NCBI GenBank assembly: GCA_036479435.1 | Contig: JAZGFI010000124.1 | Coordinates: forward strand, 1-14,225 | Direction of reading: 5' to 3' | Origin: Planctomycetota bacterium | GTDB taxonomy: Bacteria; Planctomycetota; GCA-002687715; DRQF01 | Length of the DNA stretch: 14,225 nucleotides | Part shown: piece by piece, positions 9,001 through 12,000 of the stretch | How positions within the stretch are numbered: position 1 is the first letter of the stretch | How the letters are laid out: each line of letters begins with the position of its first letter | Made by a program: the position numbers

Positions 9001-12000
9001 GCTGGTGTTGGTCGTTGCGACCTTGCTGTGCTGTTTGCCGCTGTTCGTCGCGATGCCCTGGGTCATTGGGGCGCAAACTGCGGCTTACGCGACGATCTTT
9101 CCTCGGGAAGGGCTCGCCGAGGTGTTTGATTAAGCCAGGCTTCGGTGGCGGCAGCGTGACGAAAAAGGCGCGCCCTGTGGGCGCGCCTTTTTGATTCACC
9201 GATGAGCTGACTTTGCTTAGAAGTCGAATTTCACTTCATGCCCTTCGCTTAGAAGTCGAATCGGACTTCATGTCCATTCGACGCCGCATAGCTACCATTG
9301 TTGGCGATGGGCGTGAAGACGAGGGCTTGCGACATGAAGCGCATGCCGCCAATTGAGGCGGGTGTTGTGAAGAAGAAGGGATTGCCAGCGGCGGCGAGCG
9401 GCAGGTTCAAGATCACCAAGGGTCCTGATCCAAACTGATTCAGGTGCAGTCCCGGCAAGGCGCCCGGGGGCGAGAAGCCGGGGAAAAACAGCTGGAAGAC
9501 CAACAGCGCTTGGATGCCGTTAAAGGTCCCCATCGGCGAGATCATTCGAGTTTCGACGATTTCGCCGATCTGTGGTTTGTAGATGTGAGCGGCCTGCGGA
9601 ATGACTGGTGGGGTGTTGAGGCCCGTGCCGATGGCGAGGTCGTCGCCGGTACCCGGGTAAGGGGCGGCTGGCAGGTTGTTGGTGAACACCGACAAGACTG
9701 AGCCGCTAAAAGACAAGCAAGCCAAGTCGTCGTGGCAATCGCCAGTGAAGTCACCCGAGGTGACGTGGAAGGGGTTCGCCCCGACGAAACTAACGATCTG
9801 GTCGCTGAAGGCGCCTTGGCCGTTATTCGTCAAGACGCGCAGGTTGAAGGCGTCGAAAGTGACTACGGCGAGGTCGGTACCCAGCGTGTTGTCGACGTTG
9901 GTCGCGACGATATCGACCGGCGTGACATCCGTCGGATAGTCTTGGCGATTGAAGTTGAAGCTCCCCGTGTTCCTAAGGACCGAGATGTCGGACGAACCGA
10001 CGTTGCAAGTCGCGATGTCAATGGTGCCGTCGTTGTCGAGATCCGCGAGGACTAGCGAAAAAGGTGCGGCTCCGGTCGCGATGAAGTTGCCGGGGACCAA
10101 GGCGGTGCCGGTGTTCTCGAACAACAAGACCGCACTCGCGCCACTGGCGGTCAGGACGAGGTCATCATCTCCATCGCCGTCGAGGTCGCCGTAAGCACCG
10201 TCAGAGCAGCCTGGAATCCCGAAAATACTTCCCGCAAAAGCGAGCGTACCGCCAATGTTCGCGAGAAGAGAAGTGGCGCCGATGCTGATGTTGCACACGA
10301 CGATGTCGATGTCACCATCGCCATCCGCGTCACCGGGGATAATGCGGAAAGGGTCTGTGCCACCGGAGACGATGACGGGAGCTTGAAAACTACCGGTCCC
10401 GGTGTTGACCAGGACGTAGATTTGCGCCGAGAGGTTGCAGCAGACGACGAGGTCGTCCAGGCCGTCCCCAGAAATATCCGCGGCGACGATGTCAGTCGGA
10501 CCTGAGCCCACAATGCCGAAGCCGTTTGGGGTGAAGGTTCCCGTGCCGTCGTTGAAGAAATACTCAACTCGGTTGATGGATGAAAAGCAAATGGCCAGAT
10601 CCAGGTCGCCATCGGCGTCCAGATCTAGCTTCGCCGTCGCCGTTGGCGTGGCGCCGATACCCACCGGCGTCTTCGCCTGGTAACTGGCTTGCCCCTCGGC
10701 GTGAGAAGGATTCATGAGCAAGGCGATGGCGAGTAAAAGCGACGTCGTCAAGACGGACCTGGTGGCGGTCTTCGTCGCGATCTTCGTGTACTGATTGTCT
10801 TTAGTCATTGCGGTCTCTCGTTCCAGCCGAACTCTCAGAATAGAGCAGCTGTCTCGTGGTGATTGGCGCATCTCCATGGCATCCCCACGCTTGGCACGAT
10901 CGGCACTTTCGATGGCGGGGAGCGTATTTAGCCTACGCTTAGTTGTTGTAGCGTACCCCCCCCTTTCTACCCAACCAGCTCTAGAATCCACCACCCTAAA
11001 TTCAGTGCGGGTTTTCAGCCAAACGGCCCGCAGGGACAAAAAAAAACGCGGTCGCCGAGATCCCCGGCGACCGCTGTCTTTCTTGCGAACTGGGCTAGAC
11101 TTAGGCCTGTCTCTTTTTCACCGTCGTCTTTTTGAAGGACTTCAACTTGAAGCCCCGGTGCTTCGCAATGAGGGCTTCGGCCGTCTTTTTAGACAAGGCC
11201 TGGTCCTTTTTGGCGAGGATCTTGACGCTAGAGGTGTCGCCAAAGGGCATGACGACGATGACGTCTTTGACACTGGTGAAGATCTCACGGATCTTCGCGC
11301 AAGTGTCGCCTCAGCCAACGCCGTCAACGACCAGTTTGTAAACAACGGCAGGTTTGGGCTGGGTGACTTTCTCGAGGGTGCTAATCGATGAGCGTAGGGG
11401 TTTCAGCGCGGCGCTAATGGCCTCGCGGCTGGGCTTTTTATCGTCAGTAGTCTTCATCCAAGCGGTGGCCGTCGAATCGACGACGACTGTCTTCATTCCT
11501 TTGACTTTTTCCAAGGCCGCACGGACCTTGTTGGCTTTCATGGCAGCGCCTCAGCCACCGCCTCGGGTGTAGACCATCTTCCAATAGGTCACCTTGTCGG
11601 CACCCTTGCCCTTGGGCTCTTGGAATGACACGAGCTCGAAGTTTGATTTGGTCAGCGCGGCCGAAACCACCTGGCGGTCGAGGCTATAGCCGTTCTTCAT
11701 GGTGATCCAGGCCTTGGCCTGGGCGCAGTCGACTTTGACTTGGCTGACGCCCTTCACCGATTTGAGAGCCGCACGGGCCTCATCGTGAAAGTTTCAGGCT
11801 AGGCCTTTCAGCGTGACAACGTAGACCTTGCCGCCGTCCAAGGACGGGGATGCTGTAAAGGCACTTCCAAGGCCCAGGGCGCCAAAGAGCGCCACCAGCC
11901 CGAATGCGAGAATTCGCATCTCAATTCCTCTCAGAGATTTGATTGAGGTTGGGGCTCCCTGCCCGCTCACCTGTCCCCTGATAACACCGTGATTGCCGAA

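What a model noticed while it worked through the whole genome (the two positions that open the first line are those of the whole stretch)
11101..11919. Triple-selenocysteine tandem HMA-like periplasmic protein and three single-Sec HMA relatives
Four short genes called on C124 (g01938-g01935, minus strand) form one 272-codon frame with a signal peptide and three tandem ferredoxin-like HMA/MerP-type repeats, each with an in-frame TGA exactly where HMA domains carry the first metal-binding Cys (G-x-x-U); three further secreted HMA proteins (C96:6430-7224, C109:1240-1575, C146:3157-3543) have GMT-U-xxC / GMS-U-xxC. I read them as periplasmic metal (Hg/Cu or selenide)-binding selenoproteins, the C124 protein carrying three Sec, the top of what is known for a bacterial polypeptide. 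New would be a MerP/CopZ-like multi-Sec family typical of Planctomycetota with its own SECIS loop consensus.
Evidence so far: Read-through translations with U at residues 42, 123, 203. Each of the 3 UGAs on C124 and those on C96 and C109 is followed at +17 to +25 nt by a 5-7 bp hairpin whose apical loop reads CGUGC or CGUGA (5 of 6 sites; C146 has another loop). search_genomes of 151 Planctomycetota genomes with the C124 protein (TGA=C): 14 genomes hit at E<=1e-5; 13 of 14 non-self matches hold 1-3 in-frame TGA; in three relatives read out the TGAs lie in the same repeat motifs (GGG-U-GAA, DGVG-U-AETC, ISG-U-GAAS, GLG-U-MGTA). NCBIfam: only sub-threshold likeness to MerP, CopZ and the UxxU metal-binding selenoprotein NF041115 (E 1e-5 to 1e-3 for C124; 1e-18 to 1e-16, below cut-offs, for C96). 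Review PMC13188914 Tab [...]
(Added by a program. Inside this text positions count along the whole contig: contig position 1 is position 1 of the stretch shown here. "Call 12" and the like, gene names such as g00115 and contig names such as C1 are that model's own, and its searches are not shown. The text may have been shortened before it was handed on; [...] marks where a part breaks off. The agent that wrote the report below was given it as the finding of a first reader that could run no searches.)

Follow-up and report, generated by a model that had tools for sequence, protein, structure and literature searches.

The report
Secreted three-selenocysteine HMA-like protein gene
What gene callers split into four small genes is most likely one gene for an exported protein of three metal-chaperone-like domains, each carrying one selenocysteine, and it belongs to a large, so far unannotated family of such proteins.

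Summary
Window 11101-11919 (-) is one 272-codon frame with TGA at codons 42, 123 and 203. The genome has tRNA-Sec, selA, selB and selD.

Each TGA is followed by a 7-bp hairpin with pentaloop CGUGC/CGUGC/CGUGA that meets the published bacterial SECIS model. In 24 relatives' loci, 42 of 48 internal TGAs carry a CGUGN loop, with strong stem covariation. None of 16 terminal TGAs does.

The two C-terminal Sec columns are invariant in 19 aligned proteins. AlphaFold gives three ferredoxin-like domains (pLDDT 88). The best fold matches are tandem HMA domains, MerP and CopZ, and Sec aligns with the first Cys of GMTCxxC.

Public databases hold only fragments or TGA-as-Trp readings, all unnamed.

I read it as a genuine secreted three-Sec HMA-like selenoprotein. 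Metal binding is inferred, not shown.

The "own SECIS loop" claim fails: a peroxiredoxin and a DsbD gene in this genome use the same loop.

This scan's earlier notes hold nothing like it on other DNA.

The parts
11101..11919 (-). Whole coding sequence: 272 codons plus TAA stop, with three in-frame TGA read as selenocysteine
   Evidence: Translation. Homologous frames with TGA at the same columns in relatives.
11926..11932 (-). Shine-Dalgarno-like GAGAGGA, ending 6 nt before the ATG
   Evidence: Read directly. Inference only.
11851..11919 (-). N-terminal signal peptide (about residues 1-23; Arg2, hydrophobic core, GSA|F; no lipobox Cys, no twin-Arg)
   Evidence: Best 10-residue Kyte-Doolittle mean is 2.89, and all 24 family members score 2.0-3.3. 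pLDDT is below 50 for residues 1-21. The cleavage site is inferred.
11620..11829 (-). HMA-like domain 1 (residues 31-100), motif G-L-A-U42-N-F-H, with conserved Cys65 in a V-D-C turn
   Evidence: Secondary structure E32-38, H42-53, E58-64, E69-74, H82-89, E95-100. MerP and CopZ HMMs match residues 34-76.
11794..11796 (-). UGA-1 (Sec42)
   Evidence: The same column is TGA in L013 but is neither Sec nor Cys in L014.
11763..11782 (-). SECIS-1: 7 bp with one bulged U, pentaloop CGUGC starting 21 nt after the U of UGA
   Evidence: -9.7 kcal/mol; 10 of 200 shuffles fold as well.
11356..11595 (-). HMA-like domain 2 (residues 109-188), motif G-G-G-U123-G-A-A
   Evidence: E109-117, H125-137, E142-148, E152-157, H165-175, E179-188. 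U123, A125, A129 and L136 are invariant in 19 sequences.
11551..11553 (-). UGA-2 (Sec123)
11512..11530 (-). SECIS-2: 7 bp CAAGGUC/GGCCUUG, pentaloop CGUGC starting at +30
   Evidence: -9.4 kcal/mol; 6 of 200 shuffles. Covariation.
11122..11346 (-). HMA-like domain 3 (residues 192-266), motif G-V-G-U203-G-D-T-C
   Evidence: E192-199, H204-215, E220-226, E231-236, H244-252, E258-266. G200, U203 and R211 are invariant and T206 is at least 90% conserved. The profile aligns this U to the first Cys of GMTCxxC.
11311..11313 (-). UGA-3 (Sec203)
11278..11296 (-). SECIS-3: 7 bp GAAGAUC/GAUCUUC, pentaloop CGUGA starting at +24
   Evidence: -8.1 kcal/mol; 2 of 200 shuffles. Covariation.
11038..11074 (-). 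Intrinsic terminator (12-bp GC-rich stem plus T9), 26 nt after the TAA

Best explanation
This is one gene, not four. Its mRNA has three UGA codons. Each is followed 14-23 nt later by a 7-bp hairpin with pentaloop CGUG(C/A), which acts as a bacterial SECIS. SelB with Sec-tRNA(Sec) would bind it, and selenocysteine would be inserted at residues 42, 123 and 203.

The product has an N-terminal Sec-pathway signal peptide. It would be exported and fold into three ferredoxin-like (beta-alpha-beta-beta-alpha-beta) HMA-type domains. Each domain presents one selenolate at the start of helix 1, where MerP, CopZ and Atx1 hold their first metal-ligand cysteine.

Shown here:
- the frame, the conserved TGAs, and the covarying hairpins;
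- the Sec machinery in the genome;
- the predicted fold, the Cys/Sec alignment, and the size of the family.

Inferred (about 45% likely): the protein binds or buffers soft metal ions (Cu(I), Hg(II) or similar) outside the cytoplasm. Because the second Cys of CxxC is gone, the metal would be held between selenolates of two domains. The domain 2+3 pair is the conserved two-Sec unit of the family. Alternatively, the metal would sit between Sec and a nearby Cys (C65 in domain 1, C207 in domain 3).
For: (1) Frame and codons. 272 codons with U42, U123 and U203. The stretch is identical in contigs of 3 runs from 3 studies.

(2) Sec machinery. tRNA-SeC on C117; selB 323 bits, selA 526 bits and selD 372 bits, all over their cut-offs. 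selA is present in 44 of the 45 genomes with a family match. The one without it (G395) has a match without TGA.

(3) Comparative evidence. I delimited 24 of the 30 loci returned. All have a signal-peptide-like N-terminus and 2 or 3 repeats. Three have 3 Sec, 18 have 2 and 3 have 1, giving 48 internal TGAs. The Sec123 and Sec203 columns are invariant in 19 of 19 aligned proteins at 21-43% identity to the window's protein.

(4) SECIS.
- 42 of 48 sites have a CGUGN pentaloop; the other 6 have GGUUC, AGUUC (2), CGGCG (2) or CGGGA.
- 86.1% of pair cells are paired, against 33-43% with the partner slid by 1-3 columns.
- 7 of 8 pairs show double-sided changes (75 cells). The covariation score is 0.603 against a shuffled mean of 0.267, reached by 0 of 500 shuffles.
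- RNAalifold finds the same 7-bp stem on its own.
- 0 of 16 terminal TGAs has such a hairpin.
- Replicate set: 17 of 18 internal TGAs in 9 further loci have CGUGN, and 5 flanking TGAs have stems of 3 bp or fewer.
- Marine metagenome relatives of much lower GC keep the same hairpins.
- The loop's CGU is an Arg codon. CGT makes up only 14.5% of Arg codons in this genome's long ORFs.
- All four criteria of the published bSECIS model are met.
- The same loop follows the Sec codon of an AhpC/TSA and a DsbD-like gene in this genome.

(5) Fold. AF2 gives pLDDT 88.2 and pTM 0.65, with three bab-bab units. Foldseek hits: CopA tandem HMA 1p6t/2rml and ATP7B WLN5-6 at E 1.1e-5; MerP 1osd TMt 0.79, rmsd 2.1; CopZ 6ff2 TMt 0.84, rmsd 1.8.

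(6) Cys/Sec pairing. The family profile aligns its U column to the first Cys of GMTCxxC in ATP7B, CopA and HMA4. One full-length relative (P0049) has Cys at both Sec columns.
Against: - There is no experimental Sec insertion, and no RNA run holds the stretch.
- Pfam HMA scores 19.3 bits against a cut-off of 24.8. Every NCBIfam HMA-type model is far under its cut-off.
- The CxxC pair is absent. The position of the second Cys is H in domain 1, A in domain 2 and T in domain 3. Classical two-thiolate metal binding within one domain is therefore impossible.
- Sec42 is less secure than the other two. Its stem needs a bulge. The domain-1 Sec is absent from L014, whose first domain has neither Sec nor Cys.
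- No mer, cop or other metal genes lie nearby. Neighbours are not conserved across 24 loci, except an FG-GAP protein in 3 loci of the window's own family.
- One relative (P0007) has Lys and Asp at the Sec columns.
- Relatives are not independent, so shuffle statistics overstate the support.
- Three successive Sec insertions would cost yield.
Confidence: 0.8

Rival explanations
1. The protein is a real three-Sec secreted selenoprotein, but the selenols do redox chemistry rather than bind metal. They would form diselenide or selenenylsulfide bonds between domains or with Cys65/Cys207, for example to reduce peroxides or disulfides in the periplasm.
For: - Each domain has a single Sec without the CxxC partner.
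- Conserved Asp/Thr sit in the neighbouring turn: D148 and T150 at 90% or more, T206 at 90% or more.
- The review says most uncharacterised bacterial selenoproteins are thought to be redox proteins (passage).
- The other extracytoplasmic selenoproteins found in this genome, DsbD-like and Prx, are redox proteins.
- A thioredoxin-like gene lies next to the L016 homologue.
Against: - The fold and the Sec position are those of metallochaperones, not of a thioredoxin fold.
- The closest classical relatives in the same genomes keep UxxC in a GMT context typical of metal sites.
- The thioredoxin neighbour occurs in only 1 of 24 loci.
Confidence: 0.25
2. The protein is a selenium carrier or store, a bacterial analogue of selenoprotein P. 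The point would be the selenium content of an exported multi-Sec protein, not catalysis or metal binding.
For: - There are several Sec per chain, each in a repeated module.
- No Cys-only orthologue appeared among the 33 loci read from genomes.
- The gene stands alone with its own terminator.
Against: - Two or three Se atoms per 20-30 kDa is a poor store.
- Sec positions are fixed at a functional loop of a known ligand-binding fold.
- A Cys/Cys relative exists (P0049).
Confidence: 0.07
3. Decoding is only partial. Most ribosomes stop at one of the UGAs, so the main products are truncated, and the full-length protein is a minor or selenium-dependent form.
For: - Bacterial Sec insertion competes with release factor 2 (established knowledge, recalled).
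- Three sites multiply the loss.
- SECIS-1 is the weakest of the three.
- TGA is also the normal stop of 16 of 24 family genes.
Against: - Protein-level conservation continues in frame through every TGA to a common C-terminus in all 24 loci.
- A product ending at residue 41 would be little more than a signal peptide.
- Each UGA keeps its own covarying hairpin.
Confidence: 0.1
4. This is not a selenoprotein. It is a decayed gene or four unrelated small ORFs, or TGA is read as Trp or Gly under a deviant genetic code.
For: - Gene callers split the frame into four pieces.
- Database proteins of the family carry Trp at both columns.
Against: - TGA sits at the same alignment columns in loci of more than 30 genomes, down to 21% identity, without frameshifts.
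- TGA is a true stop in 16 of 24 family genes.
- The Trp forms are artefacts. The 183-aa forms occur only on contigs of 690-1255 nt, while longer contigs give 38-, 66- and 81-aa pieces. The DNA of 97%- and 89%-identical relatives has TGA at both sites.
- 10 of 10 genome matches to a Trp-form protein hold 2 TGA.
- The Sec machinery is complete.
Confidence: 0.02

Closest known systems
NF041115 'UxxU_metal_bind' metal-binding (seleno)protein (the 'putative mercuric reductase' family of the review's Table 1, 2 Sec)
   Same: HMA-type domain with Sec in the metal loop. It is the NCBIfam model matched by most family members (12 of 19, best E 4.1e-10). It is a predicted metal-binding selenoprotein.
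   Different: Its motif is UxxU within one domain. Here there is one Sec per domain, with H/A/T at the +3 position. The window's protein scores 19.2 bits against a cut-off of 95. It has a signal peptide and 2-3 tandem domains.
MerP (TIGR02052) and the Sec-containing 'Mercuric transport protein MerP' of the GOS selenoproteome table (PMC2398784)
   Same: A periplasmic single HMA domain with a signal peptide. Fold match to MerP 1osd: TMt 0.79, rmsd 2.1. A Sec form of MerP was listed in 2008 with 2 sequences (passage).
   Different: It scores 25.8 bits against a cut-off of 92.55. There is no mer operon, no second Cys, and it has three domains and three Sec.
Classical UxxC HMA selenoproteins: the HMA domain of cation-transporting P-type ATPases (UxxC, review Table 1) and the secreted GMTUxxC proteins of these same genomes (C96, C109, C146; L033, L035)
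   Same: Sec replaces the first Cys of GMTCxxC, with the same CGUGA SECIS loop at +27. L035 also has three Sec in three tandem repeats.
   Different: They keep the second Cys, and C96 (83.7 bits) and C109 (30.8) pass Pfam HMA while C146 (24.4 against 24.8) falls just short. The window's protein has lost the second Cys and has Gly-rich GGGU / GVGU loops.
Tandem HMA domains of CopA (1p6t, 2rml) and ATP7B (2ew9)
   Same: Best whole-model fold matches, E 1.1e-5. Two adjacent HMA domains form a unit.
   Different: They are cytoplasmic parts of P-type ATPases, with two Cys per domain and no Sec.
[quoted passage not shown]
   Same: Several Sec in one chain. Three is the largest number in the review's table of 119 prokaryotic families.
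   Different: The folds are unrelated. Selenoprotein P uses 3'-UTR SECIS elements that serve many UGAs (abstracts listed). Here each UGA has its own in-frame hairpin.

Membership tests
Bacterial selenoprotein gene | In-frame UGA conserved at the same position in homologues | tested here: met
   The U123 and U203 columns are invariant in 19 of 19 aligned proteins. There are 48 internal TGAs in 24 loci, 18 more in 9 loci, and TGA in marine relatives. U42 is shared with L013 but not L014.
Bacterial selenoprotein gene | bSECIS after the UGA: 3-9 nt loop, 4-16 bp stem, G in the first two loop positions, 16-37 nt spacing, MFE of -7.5 kcal/mol or lower (model as given in PMC13188914, section 5) | tested here: met
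   Loops are CGUGC, CGUGC and CGUGA. Stems are 7 bp. Loops start at +21, +30 and +24. MFE values are -9.7, -9.4 and -8.1. Covariation.
Bacterial selenoprotein gene | Genome encodes tRNA-Sec, SelA, SelB and SelD | tested here: met
   All three proteins score over their NCBIfam cut-offs, and selD itself has 1 TGA.
Bacterial selenoprotein gene | Cys-containing homologues align Cys with Sec | tested here: met
   P0049 has Cys at both columns. The profile aligns U to the first Cys of GMTCxxC in solved HMA domains. P0035 is a Cys form of the C96-type protein. Only 1 close Cys/Cys form was seen.
Bacterial selenoprotein gene | Selenium shown in the protein (75Se labelling or mass spectrometry) | not testable with these tools
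   No such data. No RNA run holds the stretch either.
HMA domain (Pfam PF00403) | Score over Pfam's gathering cut-off | tested here: not met
   19.3 bits against 24.8. The relatives C96 (83.7) and C109 (30.8) pass.
HMA domain (Pfam PF00403) | Beta-alpha-beta-beta-alpha-beta ferredoxin-like fold | tested here: met
   The AF2 model (pLDDT 88.2) shows this pattern three times. Foldseek matches MerP, CopZ, Atx1, ZntA and ATP7B domains with TMt 0.62-0.84. This rests on a prediction, not a solved structure.
HMA domain (Pfam PF00403) | Metal site of two Cys in GMxCxxC | tested here: not met
   Only the first position is kept, as Sec. The +3 position is H45, A126 and T206.
MerP (TIGR02052) | Equivalog cut-off and mer operon context | tested here: not met
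   25.8 bits against 92.55. Neighbours are an FG-GAP protein and DUF1800, with no mer genes in the window or in 24 loci.
NF041115 UxxU metal-binding selenoprotein | Equivalog cut-off and UxxU motif | tested here: not met
   19.2 bits against 95. The best family member reaches E 4.1e-10. The motifs are U-N-F-H, U-G-A-A and U-G-D-T.
CopZ-type copper chaperones (NF047957, NF033795, NF033794) | Model cut-off; cytoplasmic single domain with CxxC | tested here: not met
   25.1, 18.7 and 17.5 bits against 85, 91 and 95. A signal peptide is present.

The most novel reading that the evidence does not exclude
The conserved two-domain unit (one Sec per HMA-like domain, no CxxC) is a new extracytoplasmic selenoprotein module. 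Its two selenolates come together across domains, either to clamp a soft metal ion (a bis-selenolate site) or to cycle as a diselenide. The module is widespread in Planctomycetota and in marine metagenomes, yet invisible in annotation because callers cut it at TGA. The need to place a SECIS inside the first helix has also shaped the protein: an invariant Arg is encoded by the rare CGU, and the flanking residues covary to keep the stem.
Probability: 0.3. Interest if true: 0.8.

Novelty: new variant of a known kind. Interest (0 to 1): 0.66.

Why it matters
- Multi-Sec proteins are rare in bacteria. The 2026 catalogue lists 119 families, almost all with one Sec and none above three. Here three independent UGA/SECIS units sit within 820 nt of one gene, and dozens of natural variants exist. 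That makes a ready comparative system for asking how bacterial ribosomes manage repeated Sec insertion, and how far a coding sequence can bend to carry a SECIS.
- The family is an exported selenoprotein on a metallochaperone fold that has given up the second cysteine. This points to selenolate-based metal handling or redox chemistry outside the cytoplasm that has not been studied.
- Public protein databases hold the family only as 40-80-residue 'hypothetical proteins', or with a false Trp at the Sec sites. Selenoproteome counts for Planctomycetota and for marine metagenomes are therefore too low.

Tried and rejected
- **Rfam.** A scan of 10800-12200 at E up to 10 gave only chance-level hits (sar, MIR4374, speF). 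Rfam did not help with the SECIS.
- **Full-length homologues.** The search for homologous proteins returned none at near length and only the window's own four fragments at shorter lengths. This is the limit of a word index on split genes, not evidence of uniqueness; the HMMER scan found 600.
- **The search for related loci.** With the 19-sequence alignment it had no conserved stretch to search. With 6 sequences it used one pattern and recovered only 7 loci already known, all Planctomycetota MAGs. Distribution in other phyla therefore stays untested.
- **Gene neighbourhood.** 55 flanking frames of 24 loci were scanned against Pfam. No shared partner appeared apart from FG-GAP in 3 loci of the window's own family. 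Many frames of the GC-rich loci are probably not genes.
- **Large repeat hits.** The top hits of 1000-1700 aa are ordinary Cys-HMA P-type ATPases or a false positive (P0008), not proteins with many Sec.
- **Expression.** No RNA holder is listed for the stretch. Contigs cannot show transcripts.
- **Protein atlas.** No look-alike result was obtained for the read-through protein.
- **Literature gap.** Haft & Tolstoy 2025 (mSystems 10:e0141724), which defines several double-selenoprotein families, is not held. I could only test its NCBIfam models, none of which matched.
- **Loci not analysed.** L036-L038 gave no tblastn segment. L039/L040 are classical Cys HMA proteins. L041 has no Cys or Sec in the motif.
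- **ORF limits.** They were set by rule, using a hydrophobic N-terminus and the first stop after the match. L017 was corrected by hand to its TGA stop.
- **Model coordinates.** They are not available to me, so Se-Se and Se-S distances could not be measured.
- **Promoter.** No sigma-70-like promoter was found. This is uninformative for this phylum.
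Full report
**1. The observation**

Read on the minus strand with TGA as U, window 11101-11919 gives 272 residues ending at TAA, with U at 42, 123 and 203. 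Under table 11 the frame breaks into short ORFs. A database of 5.8 billion proteins holds it only as four pieces of 76, 68, 49 and 41 aa.

The 951 nt around the gene are letter-identical in contigs of three sequencing runs from three studies, at depths 15.8, 76.6 and 9.6. Two of these runs may be the source, but the stops are not an assembly error.

A GAGAGGA lies 6 nt before the ATG. A 12-bp GC-rich stem followed by T9 lies 26 nt after the stop. The gene looks like a self-contained unit.

**2. Can this organism make selenoproteins?**

Yes. The 5.47-Mb assembly carries the full set:
- a tRNA-SeC;
- selB, 323 bits;
- selA, 526 bits;
- selD, 372 bits, itself with one in-frame TGA.

tRNA-Sec, selD and selA lie together on contig C117.

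In a sample of 401 genomes of the phylum, selA is found in 290. Of the 45 genomes with a match to this protein, 44 have selA. The exception, G395, has a match without TGA. Since 72% of the phylum has selA, this is consistent rather than strong evidence.

**3. The family**

A six-frame search of 401 Planctomycetota genomes matched in 45. That includes 8 of 8 genomes in the window's own family and 8 of 8 in a sister family (Isosphaeraceae, by the record titles), but 0 of 5 in a third family of the order. Of 55 match rows, 45 contain 1-3 TGA.

I delimited 24 of the 30 loci returned. I dropped L036-L038 (no tblastn segment), L039/L040 (classical Cys HMA proteins) and L041 (no Cys or Sec).

All 24 start with a hydrophobic, signal-peptide-like N-terminus and hold two or three repeats:
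- 3 loci have three Sec: the window; L013, at 43-46% identity; and L035, which has three near-identical GMTUGxxC repeats.
- 18 loci have two Sec.
- 3 loci have one Sec.

Three-Sec architectures thus seem to have arisen at least twice.

Sixteen of the 24 genes end in TGA, so TGA is also a normal stop here.

In a 19-protein alignment at 21-43% identity to the window's protein, both C-terminal Sec columns are invariant. So are A125, A129, L136, G200 and R211. Sec42 is shared with L013 but is absent from the first domain of L014.

**4. The hairpins**

Each of the three TGAs is followed by a hairpin:

| Site | Stem | Loop | Loop start | MFE (kcal/mol) | Shuffles folding as well |
|---|---|---|---|---|---|
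| Sec42 | 7 bp with one bulged U | CGUGC | +21 | -9.7 | 10 of 200 |
| Sec123 | 7 bp | CGUGC | +30 | -9.4 | 6 of 200 |
| Sec203 | 7 bp | CGUGA | +24 | -8.1 | 2 of 200 |

These values meet all four criteria of the bacterial SECIS model as restated in the 2026 review (section 5 read): a 3-9 nt loop, a 4-16 bp stem, G in the first two loop positions followed by G or U, 16-37 nt spacing, and MFE of -7.5 or lower.

Across the 24 loci:
- All 48 internal TGAs have such a hairpin, with the loop starting in frame at +21, +24, +27 or +30.
- 42 of 48 loops read CGUGN. The other six read GGUUC, AGUUC (2), CGGCG (2) and CGGGA.
- On a loop-centred alignment, 86.1% of pair cells are paired, against 33-43% when the partner is slid by 1-3 columns.
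- 7 of 8 pairs show changes on both sides (75 cells).
- The covariation score is 0.603, against 0.267 +/- 0.022 in shuffles; 0 of 500 shuffles reach it.
- RNAalifold finds the same 7-bp stem and pentaloop unaided.

The sequences are related, so the shuffle figure overstates the support. The slid control and the many pair types (for example UA/CG/UG, GC/AU/GU) do not depend on that.

Natural negative controls: none of the 16 terminal TGAs has this hairpin. They are followed by long GC-rich terminator-like stems instead.

Replicates:
- In 9 further loci, 17 of 18 internal TGAs have CGUGN loops, while 5 flanking TGAs have stems of 3 bp or fewer.
- Low-GC marine metagenome relatives keep the same two hairpins.

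The loop's CGU is the codon of the invariant Arg. CGT makes up only 14.5% of Arg codons in this genome's long ORFs. The residues on either side (V/I/A/T before the Arg; T/I/A/V after it) change together so that the stem is kept. RNA structure is visibly constraining the protein sequence.

**5. Is the loop special to this family?**

No. A scan of the whole genome found 159 CGUGN pentaloop hairpins with stems of 6 bp or more. Of these, 18 have an in-frame TGA 21-30 nt upstream. By my own rough estimate from base composition, about 10 would be expected by chance.

Among the 18 are this gene (2 sites), C96 and C109. Two unrelated selenoprotein genes are there as well:
- an AhpC/TSA peroxiredoxin with TPGU (Pfam E 8.5e-37);
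- a 995-aa DsbD-like protein with UPNC.

selD uses GGUCU. The common element is a pentaloop N-G-U-N-N on a 7-bp stem, which is an ordinary bacterial SECIS. This is a positive control for the hairpins being functional. It also refutes the idea of a family-specific SECIS.

**6. The protein**

With the 19-sequence alignment, AlphaFold2 gives mean pLDDT 88.2 and pTM 0.65. Residues 1-21 are disordered, followed by three beta-alpha-beta-beta-alpha-beta units.

Foldseek against the PDB:
- Tandem HMA domains rank first: CopA 1p6t/2rml and ATP7B WLN5-6, at E 1.1e-5.
- Single domains superpose well: MerP 1osd at TMt 0.79 and rmsd 2.1 A; CopZ 6ff2 at TMt 0.84 and rmsd 1.8 A.

A profile search of PDB sequences aligns the family's G-x-G-U to G-M-T-C of GMTCxxC in ATP7B, CopA and HMA4. 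The second Cys falls on a conserved Thr or Ala. Each Sec sits at the start of helix 1.

By sequence models the protein is only a marginal HMA. Pfam gives 19.3 bits against 24.8. MerP, CopZ and NF041115 all fall far under their cut-offs.

The same genome also has classical secreted UxxC HMA selenoproteins. C96 and C109 pass the Pfam cut-off, and C146 scores 24.4 against 24.8. The window's protein is best seen as a diverged branch of these that has lost the second thiol.

Domain 1 is of the type found at the N-terminus of the C96-like three-domain proteins. It carries a conserved Cys (C65, in a V-D-C turn) 23 residues after Sec.

**7. Hidden in the databases**

A HMMER scan of 1.84 billion cluster representatives with the family profile gave 600 hits at E of 1e-3 or lower and 67 at 1e-10 or lower. 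Of the 149 best hits:
- 89 are under 140 aa and cover exactly the stretches between or after the Sec columns;
- 42 are 140-300 aa long;
- 18 are longer than 300 aa.

Of the 42 mid-sized hits, 15 have Trp at both Sec columns. 11 have Cys/Cys; nearly all of those are classical GMTCxxC proteins, but P0049 is a true single-Cys counterpart. P0007 has Lys/Asp.

The Trp forms are artefacts of gene calling:
- In the cluster of P0006, the 183-aa form occurs only on contigs of 690-1255 nt. Contigs up to 16 kb give pieces of 38, 66 and 81 aa. The only name given is 'hypothetical protein'.
- The DNA of 97%- and 89%-identical relatives has TGA at both sites.
- 10 of 10 genome matches to another Trp form hold two TGA.

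**8. Function**

Nothing nearby helps. The neighbours are an FG-GAP repeat protein downstream and a divergent DUF1800 gene upstream. Across 24 loci no partner is shared, except FG-GAP in three loci of the window's own family.

From fold and Sec placement, I favour binding of soft metal ions by selenolates, at about 45%. With one chalcogen ligand per domain, the metal would be bound between domains. The domain 2+3 pair is the invariant two-Sec unit. A redox role, such as an inter-domain diselenide or a Sec-Cys bond, is the main rival at about 25%. Both remain inference.

**9. What is known**

- The 2026 review (outline, Table 1 passages and section 5 read) lists 119 prokaryotic selenoprotein families, 'a small subset' with 2-3 Sec. 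It includes UxxU metal-binding NF041115, MbdU, a UxxC cation ATPase and MerT.
- The words PF00403, HMA, MerP and Planctomycet do not occur in it.
- The 2008 GOS paper's table lists a Sec-containing 'Mercuric transport protein MerP' with 2 sequences (passage).
- Full-text searches for selenoprotein together with 'heavy metal-associated' or 'HMA domain' found one unrelated review and no paper with both terms among those listed.
- The deep-Sep paper has none of my six search terms.
- Haft & Tolstoy 2025 could not be read.

Sec in an HMA/MerP-like domain is therefore known as a kind. I found no description of a secreted tandem family with one Sec per domain, no CxxC, and two or three SECIS elements per gene.

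**10. Verdict**

- The gene is very probably a genuine three-Sec secreted HMA-like selenoprotein (0.8).
- It is a new variant of a known kind, and a member of a large unannotated family.
- Its biochemical role is open.

Noticed in passing
G000 C185:14220-14780 (+) = L059; C271:81187-84171 (-) = L060; C262:49459-50631 (-) = L061: Further probable selenoprotein genes in the same genome, each with a CGUGN pentaloop hairpin 21-30 nt after an in-frame TGA. They are an AhpC/TSA peroxiredoxin (TPGU), a 995-aa DsbD-like protein whose C-terminal motif is UPNC, and a 391-aa secreted protein with G-C-V-U and no Pfam match.
   Followed up: partly
G000 C117:33644-36236 (L009, L010): tRNA-Sec, selD (itself with an in-frame TGA in S-S-G-G-U, SECIS loop GGUCU at +35) and selA lie side by side. 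selB is elsewhere, at C237:11306-13195.
   Followed up: partly
Proteins P0006, P0017, P0020, P0022, P0030, P0032, P0033, P0036, P0039, P0044, P0058, P0068, P0107, P0151, P0009: Public metagenome protein sets hold full-length family members with Trp where the DNA has TGA. On very short contigs the gene caller evidently chose a TGA=Trp code. Such 'W' columns could be mined to find selenoproteins.
   Followed up: yes
L034, L050-L053 (G023, G042, G390, G321, G094): One two-Sec subfamily has a lipobox-like L-A-G-C / L-L-G-C at the end of the signal peptide. These members are probably lipoproteins, unlike the window's protein.
   Followed up: no
L041:2-637 (G067): A Sec-free, Cys-free HMA-like relative. 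Its frame, read through TGA, ends in a Gly-rich tail with three TGA (GGUGKGGUGGGUGGGR). Most likely the first TGA is simply the stop, but this was not examined.
   Followed up: no
window 9249-11039 (-), and L013:2386-3792, L024:650-1390: An FG-GAP/VCBS repeat protein lies directly downstream of the selenoprotein gene in three genomes of the window's family. It lies past the terminator, so it is probably local synteny rather than an operon.
   Followed up: partly
window 35-2518 (-) and 2332-3045 (-): A molybdopterin-binding xanthine-dehydrogenase-family large subunit and a [2Fe-2S] small subunit with a weak TAT-signal match, which suggests a periplasmic molybdo-hydroxylase. PEPCK lies at 3111-4931 (+).
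   Followed up: no
P0049 and P0007: In the Cys/Cys relative P0049, the Arg of the second SECIS position is His. In the Lys/Asp relative P0007, the first Arg is lost. This is as expected if that Arg is kept for the RNA loop rather than for the protein (n = 2, no DNA seen).
   Followed up: no
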